From the NCBI RefSeq assembly GCF_003790525.1, contig NZ_CP033635.1: a stretch of 64,000 bases of DNA. One strand, given 5' to 3'. The DNA is from Escherichia coli. GTDB lineage: Bacteria > Pseudomonadota > Gammaproteobacteria > Enterobacterales > Enterobacteriaceae. Shown piece by piece: positions 1,336 to 53,990 of the stretch; within the stretch, counting starts at the first letter, position 1, and each line of letters starts with the position of its first letter. Both the position numbers and the translations under genes were made by a program. The notes under the pieces are model-generated. The model was not told where the DNA came from. It did not search any database and worked only from the letters and a program-made list of their open reading frames with translations.

Positions 1336-2136
1336 TTACGATAAATAGAGCTTACGCAGATAATGCGGCACTGCGTCCTCGGCGTTAGTACCAATCACTT
1401 CCAGTTCCGGATGCAGATCTTTCAGACGCTGGTGCGCACTGCCCATAATGCAGCCTTTCCCCGCCATCGACAGCATTTCGGCGTCGTTCATGCCATCGCC
1501 AAAGGCAATACAATCTTGCAGGCTGTAGCCCAGTTTCTTCGCCACCGCTTCCAGCGCATGGCCTTTCGACACGCCGCCCGCCATCACTTCCAGACAGGTT
1601 AAGGTAGAGAAACTAACGTTGACGCGATCGCCCCAGCGAGCATTAATCGCCTGCTCCAGCGGCAGCAGTTGTTCATGGGAATCGCAGGTGAAGAACACTT
1701 TGCTGACGCCTTCCGGCTCCAGTAATCCCGGCTCATACAGCGCATATTTGAATACCGCTTCTTTAAAAAAGCGCATCTCTTCCGGGCGATGACGATTCAT
1801 AAACCATTCGTCGTCGCGATAAACGTTAGTAATGATGTCCGGATTGTCGTTGACTACGCCAAACAGATCGCTGGCAATATCGCGATCCAGGTTATGAGCA
1901 AAAATCAGATTGCCATCCAGATCGTGAACGCGCGCGCCATTGGAGGTAATCATGTAAGACTTAATCTCCAGATTATCGCGAATTTGCCCCACATCAACGT
2001 GGTGACGACCGGTCGCAAATACAAAGTTGATGCCGCGCGCGGTGAGCAGCTTCAGAGTTTCTTTGGCGTAAGGGGATAACGTATGGTCGGGAGAAAGTAA
2101 CGTGCCATCTAAATCAGACGCAACAACCTGGTACAT
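1336..2136 (-). CDS. yigL: HAD-family sugar/pyridoxal phosphate phosphatase YigL
   Basis: ORF 1336..2262 trimmed to the internal Met giving MYQVVASDLDGTLL (HAD motif DxDGT), 266 aa; start sits 8 nt after the pldB stop. Confidence 0.85.
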   Translation of the reverse strand: MYQVVASDLDGTLLSPDHTLSPYAKETLKLLTARGINFVFATGRHHVDVGQIRDNLEIKSYMITSNGARVHDLDGNLIFAHNLDRDIASDLFGVVNDNPDIITNVYRDDEWFMNRHRPEEMRFFKEAVFKYALYEPGLLEPEGVSKVFFTCDSHEQLLPLEQAINARWGDRVNVSFSTLTCLEVMAGGVSKGHALEAVAKKLGYSLQDCIAFGDGMNDAEMLSMAGKGCIMGSAHQRLKDLHPELEVIGTNAEDAVPHYLRKLYLS

Positions 2137-2143
2137 AAGAAAT

Positions 2144-3166
2144 TTAAACCTCTGTAGAGCGGTTTCCGCTGGGTGAGTTATGCCTGTTGAAAAAATCAAC
2201 GATAGCGTGGAGCGCGACTGAGCGCATTGCGTCCTTTTCAAAAAGGATCTCATGGTACGCACCTTTAATTACCAACGGCCGTCCTCCTTCGACAGGATGG
2301 CCCGCAGCGGTGCGTAGTTCACAAAAACGGTCGTGCATGCGGTTATCCACCACGCGTTCCTCTTCAGCTTGTAAGAGAAGCGTTGGCGTGGCGTCATCAC
2401 CCGCACCGGCTAACACCTGTTCGCCAGCCAGAATACTTTCGCGTACCCAATGGTAGGTCGGCCCACCGACGCGAATCGTTGGGTCATCAGCATAAAAGCG
2501 TAAGTTACGTCGATATCGCTGTCTGCTGTGGGTCAGTACGTTGATAGCAAACGGCAACGCGCGCCAGCGCCCGGTGCCTATTGCATAGCCATCACGGAAA
2601 CGTGGATGCGCTTCGGCCCAGTTGAGGATCTGCCGTGCCATAAATGACGGCATACGAATCACGATCCCAAACATTGGCGCAGTTAGCGCAATGGCGTCAC
2701 ATACACCTGGATGGCGTTGCAGAAATAATGTGGAGATCGCACCGCCCATTGAATGTGCCAGTATATAGCGTTTACGCCACGGACCGGGCTGAACCTCCTG
2801 CTGCCAGAATGCCGCCAGATCATCAACATAATCATTAAAGCGATTAACATGCCCGAGATGCGGATCGGCTAACAGGCGACCGGAACGTCCCTGCCCGCGA
2901 TGGTCGATGATTAAGACATCAAACCCCAAATGGAACAGGTCATAGGCCAGTTCCGCATATTTTACGTAGCTCTCAATACGCCCCGGGCAGATGACTACCA
3001 CCCGGTCATGGTGCTGTGCGCGAAAACGGACAAAGCGCACCGGAATGTCATCCACACCAGTAAATTCTGCTTCATCACGCTGACGCCAGAAATCAGTCAG
3101 CGGTCCCATGGTAAAAGCAGCAAACGCGTTTTCTCTTGTTTCCCAGTCTTTTTGCTGCTGAAACAT
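2144..3166 (-). CDS. pldB: Lysophospholipase L2
   Basis: 340-aa ORF with alpha/beta-hydrolase motif HSMGG; synteny. Confidence 0.9.
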   Translation of the reverse strand: MFQQQKDWETRENAFAAFTMGPLTDFWRQRDEAEFTGVDDIPVRFVRFRAQHHDRVVVICPGRIESYVKYAELAYDLFHLGFDVLIIDHRGQGRSGRLLADPHLGHVNRFNDYVDDLAAFWQQEVQPGPWRKRYILAHSMGGAISTLFLQRHPGVCDAIALTAPMFGIVIRMPSFMARQILNWAEAHPRFRDGYAIGTGRWRALPFAINVLTHSRQRYRRNLRFYADDPTIRVGGPTYHWVRESILAGEQVLAGAGDDATPTLLLQAEEERVVDNRMHDRFCELRTAAGHPVEGGRPLVIKGAYHEILFEKDAMRSVALHAIVDFFNRHNSPSGNRSTEV

Positions 3167-3276
3167 CGGGTAATCTGCCTCTTAAACCACGTAAAATCGT
3201 TTTTTTAAGCGTGCCTGACACAACGCTGCGACAGTAGCGTATTGTGGCACAAAAATAGACACACCGGGAGTTCATC

Positions 3277-8149: not shown

Positions 8150-9040
8150 ATGGATGCAAAACAAACGCGGCAGGGCGTATTACTCGCTCTTGCCGCTTAT
8201 TTTATTTGGGGTATTGCGCCAGCGTACTTCAAGCTGATTTACTACGTGCCCGCCGATGAGATCCTGACGCATCGCGTGATCTGGTCGTTTTTCTTTATGG
8301 TGGTGCTGATGAGCATTTGCCGCCAGTGGTCCTATTTAAAAACGCTGATTCAGACGCCACAGAAAATTTTTATGCTGGCAGTCTCTGCCGTGCTGATTGG
8401 TGGCAACTGGCTACTGTTTATCTGGGCGGTGAACAATCACCATATGCTGGAAGCGAGCCTTGGTTACTTTATTAACCCACTGGTGAACATTGTGCTGGGG
8501 ATGATTTTCCTCGGCGAGCGATTCCGCCGGATGCAATGGCTGGCGGTGATTCTGGCGATATGTGGCGTGTTGGTTCAGTTGTGGACTTTTGGTTCACTGC
8601 CGATTATCGCGCTGGGGCTGGCGTTTAGTTTTGCCTTCTACGGCCTGGTACGCAAGAAGATTGCTGTTGAAGCGCAAACCGGCATGTTAATCGAAACTAT
8701 GTGGTTGCTGCCCGTGGCGGCGATTTACCTGTTTGCTATTGCCGACAGCTCAACCAGCCATATGGGGCAAAACCCGATGTCGCTGAATTTACTGCTGATC
8801 GCCGCCGGTATTGTCACTACCGTACCGCTGTTGTGTTTTACTGCGGCTGCGACACGCCTGCGTCTCTCAACGTTAGGCTTTTTTCAGTACATTGGCCCGA
8901 CGCTGATGTTCCTGCTGGCTGTGACGTTTTATGGTGAAAAACCGGGTGCCGATAAGATGGTAACCTTCGCCTTTATTTGGGTGGCGCTGGCAATTTTTGT
9001 GATGGATGCGATTTATACGCAGCGTAGAACGTCCAAATAA
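8150..9040 (+). CDS. rarD: EamA/DMT-family transporter RarD
   Basis: 296-aa polytopic membrane protein MDAKQTRQGVLLALAAYFIWGIAP. Confidence 0.9.
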   Translation: MDAKQTRQGVLLALAAYFIWGIAPAYFKLIYYVPADEILTHRVIWSFFFMVVLMSICRQWSYLKTLIQTPQKIFMLAVSAVLIGGNWLLFIWAVNNHHMLEASLGYFINPLVNIVLGMIFLGERFRRMQWLAVILAICGVLVQLWTFGSLPIIALGLAFSFAFYGLVRKKIAVEAQTGMLIETMWLLPVAAIYLFAIADSSTSHMGQNPMSLNLLLIAAGIVTTVPLLCFTAAATRLRLSTLGFFQYIGPTLMFLLAVTFYGEKPGADKMVTFAFIWVALAIFVMDAIYTQRRTSK

Positions 9041-9349
9041 AAAATAAATATATTCTGAAAAAATATGCCGACTCTTGCATGAGAGTGGGCATATTGCCAT
9101 GCTGACAGGAGACTCACATAAGGAAAGGCAGAATTTCCAGACGTCGTTGTATATTTTCATTTGCTTTAATAAATTTCATTTTTGGTAAATTCAGCATTAT
9201 GTTATTAGCGATGAGCAAGACCAATCATTAACCAAGTTCTCTTCAGAATGTAATGAAAAATGTGAAGTGCATTTCTTTTTTAAAATTTTTTACCCTATTA
9301 TTTCTTATCAAATTAACATTGCCCTTAATTATAAGAAAGGAGAATATAA

Positions 9350-10198
9350 ATGAACAACATATTAGGCTCATCAATTAATATGCCCTGTACACTTTTCGAA
9401 ACTATTACTTTATTCGATGATTTTTCTGCTGATGATATGCAGTATGGGGATATGGAAGAACAAGATTTTCTCTCACTCGGCTTAAGCGACATCTCTGCAA
9501 AAGTTGATCCTTACCGCCTCATTAAATACCATTTTCCTGGGCCGAATTCTACTTATGGTGCTTTTAGTGTTCCAACTTCTGGAACAAAAATATCACAAAG
9601 TGAATGTATTGATATTTTATTTGCAGAAATGAAAGATCTGGCAAAAATGTTTTCCTTTTTTGGACAATACAAAACACTCATCCAGGATCTGATTGATCAT
9701 TTTAGATATGGAAATGGCAACAGTTTCCATAGCCAGGAATTGAACTTATCTTTTCATGAACGAATAAACAAATATGATTATAATAGCCCAATACGTGTAA
9801 TCAAAGAATGTATCGAAAATGATATTTCTTCAACACCTACGATAGGATACCGGCCTCTTCTCCTACAAAAGATTAAGACCGAATTACTTTCATCAAGACT
9901 AAATAAATTCAATGATTTTAAAGATAATTTTAATGGCATGGGAATCAGCATTCATGATATCTCAGCTCAAAAAATATCTCTTTTAAATTTTCAAAAATAT
10001 CCTATGGGCTGGAGCGCTACCATTCATTTCATAGCACAAGACCACTTTGGTTTGGATGTGACTGATATAAAAAACAAGATTTACAACAAGTATAGATTTT
10101 TTCGCATATGGTTCTTTTTACAACGGCATAAAGACTTTGCTTTCAAACCTTTTTTCACCAATTTTAACACTATCGAAAGAATCGAAAATTATCTATGA
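9350..10198 (+). CDS. Hypothetical soluble protein (282 aa), first gene of the AT-rich cassette
   Basis: Long ORF in a visibly AT-rich region, preceded by Shine-Dalgarno aaggag (9337..9342) about 8 nt before the ATG; no signal peptide or TM segment; codons strongly A/T-biased. Family unknown (tentative recollection: DUF3289-like length and composition). Confidence 0.75.
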   Translation: MNNILGSSINMPCTLFETITLFDDFSADDMQYGDMEEQDFLSLGLSDISAKVDPYRLIKYHFPGPNSTYGAFSVPTSGTKISQSECIDILFAEMKDLAKMFSFFGQYKTLIQDLIDHFRYGNGNSFHSQELNLSFHERINKYDYNSPIRVIKECIENDISSTPTIGYRPLLLQKIKTELLSSRLNKFNDFKDNFNGMGISIHDISAQKISLLNFQKYPMGWSATIHFIAQDHFGLDVTDIKNKIYNKYRFFRIWFFLQRHKDFAFKPFFTNFNTIERIENYL

Positions 10199-10692
10199 AA
10201 AGAAAACTCCAGAAAATTATATTATATTTATTTCTTCTATGCTGCATCTATAATTTATGGACATTGCGTCCTGTACAGATTTTGTATACATACTCTGATG
10301 CTGGCAATTCAGTCTTTCTGGTCGTTGATCATCTGCCATGGACTGACAGCGATAAAATAAATTGGTATCTGAAGCATCAGAATGAAATTAAAAATCAACA
10401 CCCCCTACCAGAAGGTAGTTGGCATACCTGGTATGTTATTGATATCGGTAATGGCTTCACTGACTATAAAAAATATATCGAAGGGCCGTATGAAGATCTC
10501 TACTGTTTCCCGACGATTAAGAGCAATGATAATTGCATCGTAAAAAACTATTTAATGGTTATTAATGAATATCCTTACCGTAATACTCATTTTTTTATTG
10601 CTGATAACAATGAGTATCAACTAACCCAGGAAAATAAGATAGAGCGAGTGTTCAACCCGCATGACTTTGAAAAAGACAATTTTCAGCAATAA
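10195..10692 (+). CDS. Hypothetical small membrane-anchored protein (165 aa), second gene of the AT-rich cassette
   Basis: Start overlaps the upstream stop in ATGA (10195..10198); N-terminus MKRKLQK followed by a ~17-residue hydrophobic segment IILYLFLLCCIYNLWTL, then a hydrophilic domain. Family unknown (tentative recollection: DUF943-like). Confidence 0.7.
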   Translation: MKRKLQKIILYLFLLCCIYNLWTLRPVQILYTYSDAGNSVFLVVDHLPWTDSDKINWYLKHQNEIKNQHPLPEGSWHTWYVIDIGNGFTDYKKYIEGPYEDLYCFPTIKSNDNCIVKNYLMVINEYPYRNTHFFIADNNEYQLTQENKIERVFNPHDFEKDNFQQ

Positions 10693-10720
10693 GCCGGATA
10701 AAGAACAATCTTTACCCGGC
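10693..10720. terminator. Stem-loop between the convergent cassette gene B and corA (possible bidirectional terminator)
   Basis: gccggataaag / aacaat / ctttacccggc, an 11-bp stem with one mismatch, immediately after the gene B stop and just before the corA stop. Confidence 0.45.
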
Positions 10721-10727
10721 ATTTATA

Positions 10728-11678
10728 TTACAACCAGTTCTTCCGCTTAAAGTACAGATACGGTGCCAGGCCCGCGAGGATCATAAAGATAATCGCGCCA
10801 GGGTAGCCGAAGCTCCACTTCAGTTCCGGCATAAACTCAAAGTTCATCCCGTAGCTGGAAGCGACCAGCGTCGGTGGCAGGAACACCACGGATACCACCG
10901 AGAAGATTTTGATGATGCGGTTCTGCTCGATATTGATAAAGCCCATCGCCGCCTGCATCAGGAAGTTCACCTTCTGGAACAGGGATTCGTTATGCGGCAG
11001 CAGGGATTCGATATCTCGCAGGATTTCACGCGCCTGCTCCAGTTGCCCACCCGGTAAGCGTGCTTTACGTACCAGGAAGTTGAGCGCGCGCTGGGTATCC
11101 ATCAGACACAGGCGAACTTTCCAGCCGATATCTTCCAGTTCCGCCAGCGTGGAGAGCGCCTCGTCGTACTCATCGCCCTGATGCCCTTCCATAATTACCC
11201 GGCTCAACTGCTCCAGGTCACTGTAGATATTTTCAATTTCATCCGCCAACTGTTCGATTTTGGTTTCGAACAGATCCAGCAACAGCTCGTAGGCGTTACC
11301 GTCCACCATCGACTGGCTACGGGCACGCATACGATACAGACGAAAAGCGGGCAGTTCACGCTCACGCAGAGTAAACAGACGACCATCACGAATGGTAAAT
11401 GCCACAGTGGAGTTACCGGCGTGATCTTCCGCATCTTCAAAGAAGAAGAAGGAGTGAATATGCAGGCCGTCATCGTCTTCAAAGAAACGTGCCGATGCTT
11501 CGATGTCTTCCAGTTCCGGGCGGGTTGCCAGGCTCTGGCCAAGTTCAGATTGTACGCGCAGTCGCTCGTCGTCGTCCGGTTCGACAAGATCAATCCATAC
11601 TGCATTTACAAGGGGTTGTGACTCTTCGACTTCCAGCCGGGTCAGTCGGTTATTTTCCAGTTGAAATGCGCTCAGCAT
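10728..11678 (-). CDS. corA: Magnesium/cobalt transporter CorA
   Basis: ORF 10728..11693 trimmed to [15 protein letters not shown] (316 aa); GMNF motif and C-terminal TM helices present. Confidence 0.93.
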
Positions 11679-12894: not shown

Positions 12895-13797
12895 ATGAAA
12901 AAAAGGCTCGCAACGTTATTTTTATTAACGTGTCTGGGATCATCATCCGCCTATGCGGATAACGCTTTGATTTTACAAACTGATTTTAGCCTGAAAGATG
13001 GTGCCGTCTCGGCGATGAAAGGGGTCGCATTCGGCGTTGACCATAATCTTAAAATCTTTGATTTAACACACGAAATTCCACCGTATAACATCTGGGAAGG
13101 CGCTTATCGCCTGTATCAGACTGCCAGTTACTGGCCGCAAGGTTCGGTGTTTGTTAGCGTGGTCGATCCGGGCGTAGGCACTGACCGTAAATCGGTAGTG
13201 CTGAAAACCAAAAACGGTCAATACTTCGTTTCACCAGATAACGGTACGCTCACTTTGGTGGCACAAACTCTGGGTATTGATAGCGTCCGAGAAATCGACG
13301 AAAAAGCTAACCGCCTGAAAGGTTCTGAAAAGTCATATACCTTCCACGGTCGTGACGTGTATGCCTACACCGGTGCGCGTCTGGCTTCCGGGGCGATTAC
13401 GTTCGAACAGGTGGGGCCAGAGCTTCCTGCAAAAGTTGTCGAACTTTCTTATCAGAAAGCAAAAGCAACAAAAGGTGAAGTGAAGGGCAATATCCCGATT
13501 CTCGATATTCAGTACGGCAACGTCTGGAGCAATATCAGCGACGAGTTGCTGAATCAGGCAGGAATCAAACTCAACGACACGTTGTGTGTGACCATTTCCG
13601 AAGGTTCCCAGCAAAAATACGCAGGGAAAATGCCATATGTCGCAAGCTTCGGCGATGTGCCGGAAGGCCAGCCGATGGTGTATCTGAACAGCTTATTGAA
13701 TGTTTCCGTGGCGCTGAATATGGATAATTTTGCGCAGAAACATCAGGTTGCGTCTGGTGCTGACTGGAATATTGATGTGAAGAAGTGCGCTAAGTAA
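12895..13797 (+). CDS. SAM hydroxide adenosyltransferase (DUF62; fluorinase/chlorinase/SAM-hydrolase) family protein with N-terminal signal peptide
   Basis: 300-aa ORF with signal peptide MKKRLATLFLLTCLGSSSAYA and family-type motifs LILQTDFSLKDGAVSAMKGV, VFVSVVDPGVGT, YFVSPDNGTLT and DIQYGNVWSNI. Confidence 0.8.
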   Translation: MKKRLATLFLLTCLGSSSAYADNALILQTDFSLKDGAVSAMKGVAFGVDHNLKIFDLTHEIPPYNIWEGAYRLYQTASYWPQGSVFVSVVDPGVGTDRKSVVLKTKNGQYFVSPDNGTLTLVAQTLGIDSVREIDEKANRLKGSEKSYTFHGRDVYAYTGARLASGAITFEQVGPELPAKVVELSYQKAKATKGEVKGNIPILDIQYGNVWSNISDELLNQAGIKLNDTLCVTISEGSQQKYAGKMPYVASFGDVPEGQPMVYLNSLLNVSVALNMDNFAQKHQVASGADWNIDVKKCAK

Positions 13798-19475: not shown

Positions 19476-19944
19476 TATGGATTGCCTGTAAAGTTCATCG
19501 CTTTCTGCTTTCTATCATCGCAGGAGAAGACGTAAAAGCAAGCGTTTAGCGACTCTTTATGAAGTCTGAAAAGTGAGGAAATGCTGCGAGTATAACGCTT
19601 ACACGTGGCGATTTATGTTTTGCTGGCAGTTTCGTGATCGGCACCTCGCGCCAGGATGGCTTTATGCACTATCGCAACGTGGTTTGTTTGTTGTCTTGTT
19701 CGTTGTTCTTATCGTCGGCATGGGGATGTCGGCTTTCCGCGCCTGAACATAATATTTACCAGAAACAGGGAAAAGGCGTGGTGTACCTGCGTCCTTATGA
19801 AAAGACCAATCTTTCGCTATATAGAGATATTATTATTCCGTTGACGGATGAATCATGCCGTAACGCAGCCGCAGACGGGCAAACTTTGAAGCCCTGACCC
19901 CATACCGCTATACTGCCGCCATCACTTAAAAACAGGATACAACA

Positions 19945-53540: not shown

Positions 53541-53990
53541 GTGGCGATTAATTTCAGCCCCAAGGTTGGTGAAATACTGGAATGCAACTTTGGTAACTAT
53601 CCTGTTAGCCAGAATGGACAGTTCAGCACGACGTATTACGATGGCCGCATTCCACCTGAGATGATAAAAAATAGGTTGGTTGTCGTGCTCAACGGAAAAA
53701 TTAATGGCAACGCATGTATCGTCGTTCCATTATCAACCACTCGCGACCATGACAAGTTAAATCGTGGAATGCATGTTGAAATAGCCAGTAATGTTATCAA
53801 TGACCTGCAATTCTTTGATCAGCAGATACGTTGGGCTAAAGCCGACCTGGTACAACAAGTCAGTCGAAATCGATTAAACAGAGCAAGGACTTATCGGGGG
53901 TATCTTAATCAATGTTTGCCACATGAGTTGGTTGCAGACATACAGAGGGCAGTCATCAAGTCAATCAATGCCATATCGCTCATAAATTGA
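53541..53990 (+). CDS. yifN: PemK/MazF-like toxin-family protein YifN (apparently intact)
   Basis: GTG at 53541 preceded by aaggagag (53525..53532); the translation has MazF/PemK-like motif spacing (VGEILECNF, RLVVVLNG, ACIVVPLSTT). The 163-aa track ORF from 53499 is an alternative start. Confidence 0.6.
   Translation: MAINFSPKVGEILECNFGNYPVSQNGQFSTTYYDGRIPPEMIKNRLVVVLNGKINGNACIVVPLSTTRDHDKLNRGMHVEIASNVINDLQFFDQQIRWAKADLVQQVSRNRLNRARTYRGYLNQCLPHELVADIQRAVIKSINAISLIN

What the first reader, a model, noticed from the sequence alone, without database searches (positions are those of the whole stretch)
9350..10198. Gene A: 282-aa soluble protein with no assignable fold, possible toxic/effector component
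No signal peptide or hydrophobic segment. It is rich in Phe/Asn/Lys/Ile/Asp, and has several Cys and His that could form a catalytic dyad (for example SQSECIDILF and KECIEND, plus H-rich GNGNSFHSQELNLSFHERINKYDY), but I cannot place it in a known enzyme family from sequence alone. Its position upstream of a coupled membrane-anchored partner is what suggests an effector or toxin role.
Basis: inference. Interest (0 to 1): 0.55.

Follow-up and report, generated by a model that had tools for sequence, protein, structure and literature searches.

The report
Orphan T6SS-type toxin–immunity gene pair
Gene A is an ordinary member of the known DUF3289 family of periplasm-acting antibacterial toxins, paired with its DUF943 immunity gene, in an E. 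coli strain that appears to lack the type VI secretion machinery needed to deliver it.

Summary
The ORF is real (9350-10198, 282 aa) and overlaps a membrane-anchored partner (10195-10692) by ATGA. The window is the E. coli SMS-3-5 chromosome.

Gene A has an assignable family: TIGR03034 (E=1e-118) and Pfam DUF3289 (E=9e-83). Gene B is DUF943. Published work on homologues reports DUF3289 as toxic in the periplasm with cell rounding, DUF943 as the rescuing immunity protein, and an Aeromonas DUF3289 protein as a T6SS effector.

The toxin idea is supported; the Cys/His dyad is not. No Cys is conserved. The conserved core is H202-D203 and D231-H232-F-G-L-D236-x-x-D239.

The pair is in 2647 of 5426 complete E. 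coli genomes and usually co-occurs with tssC, but SMS-3-5 has neither E. coli tssC type probed.

Verdict: a new member of a known kind, of modest interest.

The parts
9350..10198 (+). Gene A: 282-aa DUF3289 / TIGR03034 (YPO3983 family) protein, the predicted periplasm-acting toxin. It has no export signal.
10195..10692 (+). Gene B: 165-aa DUF943 protein, the predicted inner-membrane-anchored, periplasm-facing immunity protein.
9337..9342 (+). Ribosome-binding site AAGGAG, 7 nt before the ATG of gene A.
   Evidence: Read directly from the sequence.
10195..10198 (+). ATGA overlap of the gene A stop and gene B start (translational coupling).
   Evidence: Comparable 4-nt overlaps occur in distant pairs, e.g. 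L007 2714/2717 and L011 10852/10855.
9953..9958 (+). Codons for H202-D203, a conserved His-Asp candidate active-site element.
   Evidence: H202 in 54/60 (N in the other 6), D203 in 91%. BtpeA has N at the H202 position.
10040..10066 (+). Codons for D231-H232-F233-G234-L235-D236-V-T-D239, the family's signature motif and candidate catalytic or metal-binding site.
   Evidence: H232, F233, G234 and D239 are invariant; D231, L235 and D236 are at least 93% conserved in 60 sequences. The motif is retained in BtpeA and in fused homologues.
10198..10266 (+). N-terminal membrane anchor of gene B (residues 2-24: KRKLQK followed by a hydrophobic helix).
   Evidence: Hydropathy maximum at residues 8-26. 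Modelled helix 2-24. The same topology was reported for T6IC1: TM 7-26, remainder periplasmic.
10504..10536 (+). Span from the codon for C104 (10504-10506) to the codon for C114 (10534-10536) in gene B; these two nearly invariant cysteines probably form a periplasmic disulfide.
   Evidence: C104 and C114 are at least 90% conserved in the 23-sequence DUF943 alignment. The disulfide is inferred.
10693..10720 (.). G+C-rich 12-bp-stem hairpin between the convergent gene B and corA stops; a terminator-like element.
9168..10727 (.). Low-GC (about 0.29-0.40) accessory cassette carrying the pair, absent from K-12.
   Evidence: GC profile. Homology to K-12 stops at about 9125 and resumes at the corA stop at 10728. 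Homology to the REL606 cassette starts at window 9168.
9133..9184 (+). 52-nt remnant of the yigG 5' region, a scar of a deletion that removed yigG-yigF-corA' from a composite ancestral locus.
   Evidence: 92% identical to REL606 yigG positions 972-1023 of L023. Composite locus structure in REL606.

Best explanation
Genes A and B form an orphan antibacterial effector-immunity cassette of the DUF3289/DUF943 type.

Gene A is a signal-less toxin of about 33 kDa. Its relatives are loaded onto the type VI secretion spike or tube and injected into neighbouring Gram-negative cells. There it acts in the periplasm on the cell envelope; homologues cause loss of rod shape. The active site is most likely built from conserved His and Asp residues (H202-D203, D231-H232, D236, D239, plus D29 and D34), not from cysteines.

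Gene B is translationally coupled to gene A and anchored in the inner membrane by one N-terminal helix. Its disulfide-containing domain faces the periplasm, where it binds and blocks incoming toxin from sister cells.

Shown here: family membership, fold matches to both chains of a solved effector-immunity complex, conserved gene pairing, fusion of homologues to T6SS delivery modules, and purifying selection.

Taken from papers on homologues: periplasmic toxicity, rescue by DUF943, and T6SS-dependent delivery.

Inferred: the catalytic residues, the substrate (peptidoglycan or its lipid II precursor), and the disulfide.

In this particular strain (SMS-3-5) neither of the two E. coli tssC sheath-gene types that I probed is present. 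The toxin is therefore probably not deliverable here, and the useful function is probably immunity against T6SS-positive relatives that carry the same toxin.
For: Family and fold:
- TIGR03034 and DUF3289 full-length matches; DUF943.

Homologues:
- Among 34 fused homologues: PAAR 9, DUF4280 1, Hcp/TssD 2, PG_binding_1 3, Peptidase_M23 3, plus LysM, SH3_3, Peptidase_M14 and an Rv2525c-like glycoside hydrolase.
- Distant standalone homologues (33-41% identity) are each followed immediately by a DUF943 gene, as orphan cassettes. L014 has DUF3289 with two DUF943 genes and, nearby, another DUF3289 with three. L011 lies about 5 kb from an orphan Hcp.

Selection and distribution:
- dN/dS is 0.19 for A and 0.17 for B between E. 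coli alleles.
- In an evenly spaced sample of 60 E. coli genomes, 25 of 28 pair-carriers have tssC against 8 of 24 clear non-carriers. The odds ratio is 8-22 and p is 2e-3 to 3e-6, depending on how 8 ambiguous rows are treated.

Literature:
- A Yersinia PAAR-DUF3289 protein is toxic when sent to the periplasm, makes cells round, and is rescued by its DUF943 partner (PMC11148199).
- The A. jandaei orphan DUF3289 protein is secreted in a T6SS-dependent manner and behaves as a genuine effector-immunity pair (PMC12135965; bioRxiv 10.64898/2026.01.27.701733).
- A standalone Aeromonas DUF3289 was not toxic when expressed without periplasmic targeting, which fits a periplasmic target.
Against: - No experiment exists on the E. 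coli protein itself.
- SMS-3-5 has no T6SS at aspV, pheV, metV or pheU. It has no match to either E. coli tssC type anywhere on its chromosome (places_in_record = 1). REL606 and M25631H also carry an intact pair without tssC. Delivery in this genome is therefore unexplained.
- No enzymatic activity has been demonstrated for any DUF3289 protein in the papers I could read.
- The co-occurrence statistic is not corrected for phylogeny.
- The A. jandaei immunity protein is a 95-aa, three-TM protein rather than DUF943, so pairing is not universal. The most distant homologue examined has no called DUF943 gene.
Confidence: 0.78

Rival explanations
1. Sub-mechanism rival A. Gene A is a true colicin M-type enzyme that cleaves the pyrophosphate link of lipid II in the periplasm, as proposed in PMC11148199.
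Against: - No Pfam Colicin_M hit, even at E<=10.
- hhalign of the DUF3289 profile gives probability 0.2% against ColM and 0.17% against a ColM-family profile.
- ColM's invariant D226-x-Y228-D229-x5-H235-R236 signature has no conserved counterpart in DUF3289. The 'NKYDY' stretch of gene A that resembles it is not conserved.
- Fusions to PG_binding_1, LysM, SH3 and M23 domains point at least as much to mature peptidoglycan as the target.
Confidence: 0.3
2. Sub-mechanism rival B. Gene A is a peptidoglycan hydrolase (amidase, peptidase or glycosidase) with a His/Asp, possibly metal-dependent, active site that acts on the sacculus rather than on lipid II.
For: Homologues are fused to peptidoglycan-binding modules (PG_binding_1 x3, LysM, SH3_3) and to other wall hydrolases (M23 x3, M14, Rv2525c-like glycoside hydrolase). 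One M23-DUF3289 protein lies next to a VgrG in Enterobacter (PMC10763514). Cell rounding is equally expected from this activity.
Confidence: 0.35
3. Roles reversed. DUF943 (gene B) is the toxic effector and DUF3289 (gene A) is a non-toxic adaptor or chaperone, as first proposed in the 2021 preprint by the same group.
For: In bioRxiv 10.1101/2021.10.07.463556, over-expressed Aeromonas piscicola DUF943 was strongly antibacterial in E. coli and the adjacent standalone DUF3289 was not toxic.
Against: - The authors reversed the assignment in the published paper after periplasmic targeting.
- DUF3289 occupies the C-terminal toxin position behind PAAR or Hcp.
- DUF943 genes occur in tandem arrays, as immunity genes do.
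- Gene B matches the chain deposited as the immunity protein BtpiA.
- Gene A carries the invariant His/Asp motif.
- Toxicity of an over-expressed membrane-anchored protein is a common artefact (my knowledge).
Confidence: 0.04
4. T6SS-independent function. The pair is an endogenous cell-wall enzyme with its inhibitor, or a selfish addiction module, maintained without any injection apparatus.
For: The pair is intact in strains with no detectable tssC (SMS-3-5, REL606, M25631H). It is under purifying selection. It occupies a stable core-genome position that is syntenic in Salmonella.
Against: - Gene A has no signal peptide, so it cannot reach the periplasm of its own cell, where its partner's domain is located.
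- A cytoplasmically expressed homologue was not toxic, so there is no addiction.
- There is a strong association with tssC and fusion to T6SS modules.
- The dN/dS value was measured between lineages that mostly have a T6SS.
Confidence: 0.08

Closest known systems
BtpeA (C-terminal domain)-BtpiA effector-immunity complex of the Bacteroides fragilis T6SS (PDB 9JDI; full-length BtpeA in 9JG8/9JG9)
   Different: Gene A is only about 20% identical to BtpeA. Gene B is 10% identical to BtpiA and is not detectable by sequence profile. BtpeA is a 608-aa protein with a long N-terminal delivery region, whereas gene A is the bare 282-aa domain. BtpeA has N at the H202 position. The organisms belong to different phyla. 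I could not read the paper describing these structures.
T6EC1/T6IC1 of Yersinia pseudotuberculosis IP32881 (PAAR-DUF3289 with DUF943; Geller et al. 2024, PMC11148199)
   Same: The same two Pfam families in the same order. The immunity protein has one N-terminal TM helix and a periplasmic body. The toxin is active in the periplasm and causes cell rounding.
   Different: [quoted passage not shown] Gene A has no delivery domain and is an orphan between rarD and corA in a strain with no detectable tssC.
Orphan DUF3289 effector of Aeromonas jandaei DSM 7311 (WP_042032936.1; PMC12135965)
   Same: An orphan DUF3289 gene away from T6SS clusters with a downstream immunity gene. It is the only DUF3289 protein in the papers I read with demonstrated T6SS-dependent secretion and killing.
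   Different: Its immunity protein is a 95-aa protein with a signal peptide and three TM helices, not DUF943. Its host has an active T6SS.
Colicin M family (Pfam PF14859; ColM, PaeM, syringacin M, pectocins), the lipid II-degrading bacteriocins

Membership tests
DUF3289 / TIGR03034 (YPO3983 family) | Whole-protein HMM score above the curated cut-off, with end-to-end coverage | tested here: met
   TIGR03034 scores 395.7 bits against a cut-off of 156.45, covering residues 8-280 of profile positions 1-274. Pfam PF11692 E=8.6e-83, residues 10-278 of model positions 2-270.
DUF3289 / TIGR03034 (YPO3983 family) | Presence of the family's invariant residues (H232, F233, G234, D239, W254, L257, Q258, P267) and near-invariant D29, D34, D192, H202, D203, D231, D236 | tested here: met
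   All are present in gene A in the alignment of 60 diverse homologues. They are also intact in the O157:H7 allele.
DUF3289 / TIGR03034 (YPO3983 family) | Same fold as a solved member | tested here: met
DUF943 (gene B) | Pfam HMM match, an N-terminal membrane anchor and two conserved cysteines | tested here: met
   PF06092 E=9.8e-28, residues 3-152. Modelled helix 2-24. C104 and C114 are nearly invariant.
T6SS antibacterial effector-immunity pair | Cognate immunity gene immediately adjacent, co-oriented and conserved across homologues | tested here: met
   ATGA overlap here. A DUF943 gene lies directly downstream in L007, L010, L011, L014, L024 and L026. Gene B has the fold of the BtpiA immunity chain.
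T6SS antibacterial effector-immunity pair | Physical or genetic link of the toxin domain to T6SS spike or tube components | tested here: met
   This holds for the family, not for this locus. Among 34 extended homologues there are PAAR fusions in 9, DUF4280 in 1 and Hcp in 2. An orphan Hcp lies about 5 kb from the pair in L011.
T6SS antibacterial effector-immunity pair | A T6SS encoded in the same genome | tested here: not met
   SMS-3-5 has none at aspV, pheV, metV or pheU. Neither the Sakai-type nor the CFT073-type tssC matches its chromosome at megablast level (places_in_record = 1). The limits are that the rare third E. coli T6SS family and very divergent systems were not probed, and no HMM scan of the whole genome was possible.
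T6SS antibacterial effector-immunity pair | T6SS-dependent secretion and killing of immunity-less prey | not testable with these tools
   Shown only for the A. jandaei homologue (PMC12135965).
T6SS antibacterial effector-immunity pair | Toxicity in the target compartment, neutralised by the partner | not testable with these tools
   Reported for the Yersinia homologue T6EC1/T6IC1 (PMC11148199). Not done for the E. coli proteins.
Colicin M family (PF14859, lipid II phosphodiesterase) | Sequence or profile match to the Colicin_M domain | tested here: not met
   Pfam lists only DUF3289 at E<=10. The DUF3289 profile does not hit any ColM chain in the PDB. hhalign probability is 0.2% and 0.17%.
Colicin M family (PF14859, lipid II phosphodiesterase) | Catalytic signature D226-x-Y228-D229-x5-H235-R236 | tested here: not met
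   The signature is invariant in my ColM-family alignment. DUF3289 has no equivalent conserved string, and the look-alike N140-K-Y-D-Y of gene A is variable.
Colicin M family (PF14859, lipid II phosphodiesterase) | Fold of the catalytic domain | tested here: inconclusive
Colicin M family (PF14859, lipid II phosphodiesterase) | Cleavage of lipid II | not testable with these tools
   No biochemical assay of any DUF3289 protein was found in the papers read.

The most novel reading that the evidence does not exclude
DUF3289 may be a distinct class of His/Asp cell-envelope toxin whose chemistry is not that of colicin M. In addition, in carriers with no detectable T6SS, such as SMS-3-5 and E. coli B (REL606), the intact toxin gene could be kept because it has a T6SS-independent role or delivery route, and not merely because it travels with a useful immunity gene.
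Probability: 0.15. Interest if true: 0.6.

Novelty: new member of a known kind. Interest (0 to 1): 0.3.

Why it matters
The finding itself is ordinary: an annotated member of a toxin family whose role has been published for homologues. Four points may still be useful.

1. About half of complete E. coli genomes, including the B lineage represented by REL606, carry this uncharacterised toxin-immunity pair at one fixed core-genome site.
2. The conserved His/Asp motif gives concrete mutagenesis targets and rules out the Cys-based idea.
3. The published label "colicin M homologue" is weaker than it sounds. It rests on fold resemblance only, with no shared catalytic signature, so the substrate of this widespread toxin family is still open.
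4. Carriers without a T6SS, such as SMS-3-5, are natural test cases for whether orphan effector-immunity pairs persist for their immunity function.

Tried and rejected
- **Cys/His dyad:** rejected by conservation mapping.
- **Apparent ColM-like strings in gene A:** 'NKYDYNSPIR' against ColM 'DKYDFNASTHR', and 'DHFRYGNGN' against ColM 'AHYLWGNGA'. The first is not conserved in the family. Neither was recovered by hhalign, so I treat both as chance.
- **K-12 YigG/YigF as diverged DUF943 relatives:** rejected (BLASTP E 0.4-2.3).
- **Anti-phage defence system:** no PADLOC hits.
- **Promoter for gene A:** the consensus scan found nothing convincing in 9041-9349, and the total count is at the shuffle expectation.
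- **Papers for PDB 9JDI/9JG8/9JG9 and BtpeA:** the primary paper is not in the library. Only a citing sentence was found.
- **Searches for YPO3983, TIGR03034, PF11692 and PF06092:** no papers.
- **Literature on T6SS in SMS-3-5:** uninformative.
- **Looking for a T6SS in SMS-3-5 island by island:** negative at four tRNA sites. I replaced this with chimeric BLAST queries.
- **Spatial clustering of conserved residues and a residue-level superposition on ColM:** not possible because model coordinates are not exposed.
- **DUF943 to BtpiA by sequence profile:** no hit; the link is by fold only.

Full report
**1. The observation**

It is preceded by AAGGAG at 9337-9342. Its stop overlaps the start of a 165-aa ORF (10195-10692) in the sequence ATGA.

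The protein has no hydrophobic stretch (maximum 19-residue Kyte-Doolittle mean 1.17). It is rich in I, F, L, S, D, N and K, and has 3 Cys and 8 His. The partner starts MKRKLQK followed by one hydrophobic helix. The quoted peptide strings are present.

**2. Where the window comes from and what the locus is**

Region 9000-10760 is 100% identical to the chromosome of E. coli SMS-3-5 (NC_010498.1) and several other strains. RefSeq annotates the two genes as 'YPO3983 family protein' and 'DUF943 family protein', between rarD and corA. The rest of the window is core chromosome (ilv, rep, rho, the ECA cluster, hem, cyaA, xerC, uvrD, corA, rarD, pldA, recQ) with no secretion-system genes.

The pair lies in a low-GC stretch (0.29-0.40 against about 0.52 in the flanks). 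K-12 has the unrelated genes yigG and yigF at the same place. Identity to K-12 ends at about 9125 and resumes at the corA stop.

E. coli B REL606 shows a composite state: rarD, yigG (pseudogene), yigF, a 147-nt duplicate of the corA 3' end, DUF3289, DUF943, corA. SMS-3-5 keeps a 52-nt yigG remnant (9133-9184), and its homology to the REL606 cassette begins right after the corA' copy (9168 onward). The SMS-3-5 arrangement is therefore a deletion derivative of such a composite locus.

The pair alone is found in 2647 of 5426 complete E. coli genomes, always on the chromosome, with alleles from 100% down to about 90% nucleotide identity. yigG-yigF is found in 2471 genomes. Salmonella enterica has a 63%-identical pair at the same syntenic position.

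**3. What gene A is**

- It matches NCBIfam TIGR03034 at E=1e-118 (395.7 bits against a cut-off of 156.45) and Pfam DUF3289 over residues 10-278 at E=8.6e-83. A family is therefore assignable.
- An exhaustive search found 461 cluster representatives at E<=0.001.
- An AlphaFold2 model built on 60 diverse homologues is confident (pLDDT 90.3, pTM 0.87).

**4. What gene B is**

- It is Pfam DUF943 (E=9.8e-28).
- In a 23-sequence alignment that includes partners of distant DUF3289 genes, the N-terminal basic-plus-hydrophobic anchor and two cysteines (C104, C114) are conserved.
- The model (pLDDT 87.4) has a helix at residues 2-24 followed by an alpha/beta domain.
- So both genes of this pair map onto both chains of one solved effector-immunity complex.

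**5. Evidence from relatives**

Standalone homologues at 33-41% identity are each followed directly by a DUF943 gene, overlapping or abutting the DUF3289 gene (a 4-nt overlap in L007 and L011). They sit as orphan cassettes among housekeeping genes. One genome has DUF3289 with two DUF943 genes and, 5 kb away, DUF3289 with three DUF943 genes, the array pattern typical of immunity genes. An Enterobacter-like contig has two tandem pairs.

Among 34 homologues with extra domains, 9 carry PAAR, 1 DUF4280 and 2 Hcp, which are the T6SS delivery modules. Others carry PG_binding_1 (3), Peptidase_M23 (3), LysM, SH3_3, Peptidase_M14 or an Rv2525c-like glycoside hydrolase.

**6. Published knowledge**

- Geller et al. 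2024 (PMC11148199) showed that a Y. pseudotuberculosis PAAR-DUF3289 protein is toxic to E. coli when sent to the periplasm. It makes cells round and is neutralised by its DUF943 partner. They proposed that DUF3289 is a colicin M homologue. They state that the mechanism and T6SS dependence remained to be shown.
- Their 2021 preprint had the roles reversed and reported that a standalone Aeromonas DUF3289 was not toxic when expressed without periplasmic targeting.
- Fridman et al. 2025 (PMC12135965) found an orphan DUF3289 protein in the T6SS-dependent secretome of A. jandaei. They showed by deletion and complementation that it forms a genuine effector-immunity pair with a downstream gene, though that immunity protein is not DUF943.
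- Other papers note DUF3289 behind PAAR, PIX and M23 domains and in Klebsiella T6SS loci.

**7.

In 60 homologues C13, C86 and C154 are kept in 9, 19 and 4 sequences, and H127 and H136 in 4 and 7. A Cys/His dyad built from the quoted strings is therefore not supported.

- Invariant residues: H232, F233, G234, D239, W254, L257, Q258 and P267.
- At least 90% conserved: D29, G33, D34, F91, G105, G123, L131, F187, D192, G196, H202, D203, D231, L235, D236, F251, F268 and T270.

The same motifs recur in the fused proteins and in BtpeA, which has N at the H202 position. A His/Asp site, possibly metal-dependent, is the best guess. That is an inference.

**8. Testing the colicin M label**

- Pfam gives no Colicin_M hit.
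- I verified the ColM sequence against 2XMX and built a ColM-family alignment in which D226, Y228, D229, H235 and R236 are invariant.
- Profile-profile comparison with the DUF3289 family gives probability 0.17% (0.2% against ColM alone).
- No DUF3289 motif corresponds to the ColM signature.
- Gene B does not resemble the ColM immunity protein.

Membership of the colicin M family is therefore not met. 'Works like colicin M' remains one of two live options. The other is direct peptidoglycan hydrolysis, which the fusion partners suggest.

**9. Delivery in this strain**

SMS-3-5 has no T6SS at the four tRNA-linked island sites aspV, pheV, metV and pheU. O157:H7 Sakai has one at aspV and CFT073 has one at metV.

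I used chimeric BLAST queries that combine a segment sure to match SMS-3-5 with the tssC genes of Sakai and CFT073. SMS-3-5 shows a single matching place in both searches, so neither tssC type is on its chromosome at megablast sensitivity.

In the evenly spaced sample of 60 genomes from the second search:
- 25 of 28 pair-carriers have tssC. The exceptions are SMS-3-5, M25631H and REL606.
- 8 of 24 clear non-carriers have tssC.
- The odds ratio is 8-22 and p is 2e-3 to 3e-6, depending on how 8 ambiguous rows are counted. This is not corrected for phylogeny.

The pair thus normally lives with a T6SS, but in this genome it looks stranded. The rare third E. coli T6SS family was not probed.

**10. 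Selection**

Between the SMS-3-5 and O157:H7 alleles, gene A is 84.4% identical in protein (dS 0.41, dN/dS 0.19). Gene B is 93.3% identical (dS 0.23, dN/dS 0.17). Adjacent corA has dS 0.11 and no amino-acid change. Both genes are maintained, and the alleles are older than the flanking core gene. All conserved motif residues are intact in both alleles.

**11. Verdict**

Gene A is a typical standalone DUF3289 toxin and gene B its DUF943 immunity protein: an orphan T6SS-type effector-immunity cassette. Its Cys/His mechanism and 'no family' statement were not.

The family is known and annotated. The E. coli copy itself is unstudied in the library I could search. I class it as a new member of a known kind, with modest interest. 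The open points are the real substrate and why the pair is kept in strains without a detectable T6SS.

Noticed in passing
window 9133-9184: A 52-nt remnant of the yigG 5' region lies upstream of gene A. Together with the REL606 composite locus (rarD, yigG, yigF, corA' duplicate, the pair, corA), it shows that the rarD-corA site has at least three states in E. coli and that the SMS-3-5 state arose by deletion.
   Followed up: yes
L023 (REL606) 1751-1897; L016 (O157:H7) 1168-1314: A 147-nt diverged duplicate of the corA 3' end (93.9% identical to the resident corA end) sits just upstream of the DUF3289 gene in REL606-type and O157-type loci. This is probably a scar of how the cassette was inserted or recombined in. 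In O157:H7, yigG-yigF are replaced by a 300-nt hypothetical ORF.
   Followed up: partly
L023 (E. coli B REL606): E. coli B REL606 carries an intact DUF3289/DUF943 pair but no detectable tssC. BL21, the strain used for the published toxicity assays of the Yersinia homologue, belongs to the same B lineage (my knowledge). If BL21 also has the pair, its resident immunity gene did not protect against the foreign toxin. I did not check BL21.
   Followed up: no
L017 (strain TUM1881) 2086-3199: An IS1 insertion joins a truncated yigG to a truncated DUF943 gene, with the DUF3289 toxin gene deleted. This is an example of decay of the cassette.
   Followed up: no
window 12895-13797 (+): A 300-aa 'SAM hydrolase/SAM-dependent halogenase family protein' with an apparent signal peptide lies between yigE and uvrD. 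K-12 has no gene there (compare).
   Followed up: no
window about 53541-53990 (+): RefSeq annotates a lone PemK/MazF-family toxin gene between ppiC and rep (ECSMS35_RS20885), with no annotated antitoxin beside it.
   Followed up: no
window about 19634-19819: A truncated 'DKNYY family protein' pseudogene fragment lies between cyaY and lptM.
   Followed up: no
L014 10001-17175; L026 4499-7319: Other Enterobacterales carry two DUF3289 genes close together with two to three DUF943 genes each (L014), or two tandem pairs (L026). This looks like paralogous expansion, as in polymorphic toxin loci.
   Followed up: partly
L011 3428-4765 and 12170-20855: In one metagenomic Enterobacterales contig the pair sits between an orphan Hcp gene (with DUF8209 and DUF1493 neighbours) and a CdiB/CdiA contact-dependent inhibition locus. 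It looks like a small competition island.
   Followed up: no
L003 (SMS-3-5 chromosome 255-275 kb): SMS-3-5 carries the Flag-2 lateral flagellar gene cluster next to the aspV region, where other strains carry a T6SS.
   Followed up: no
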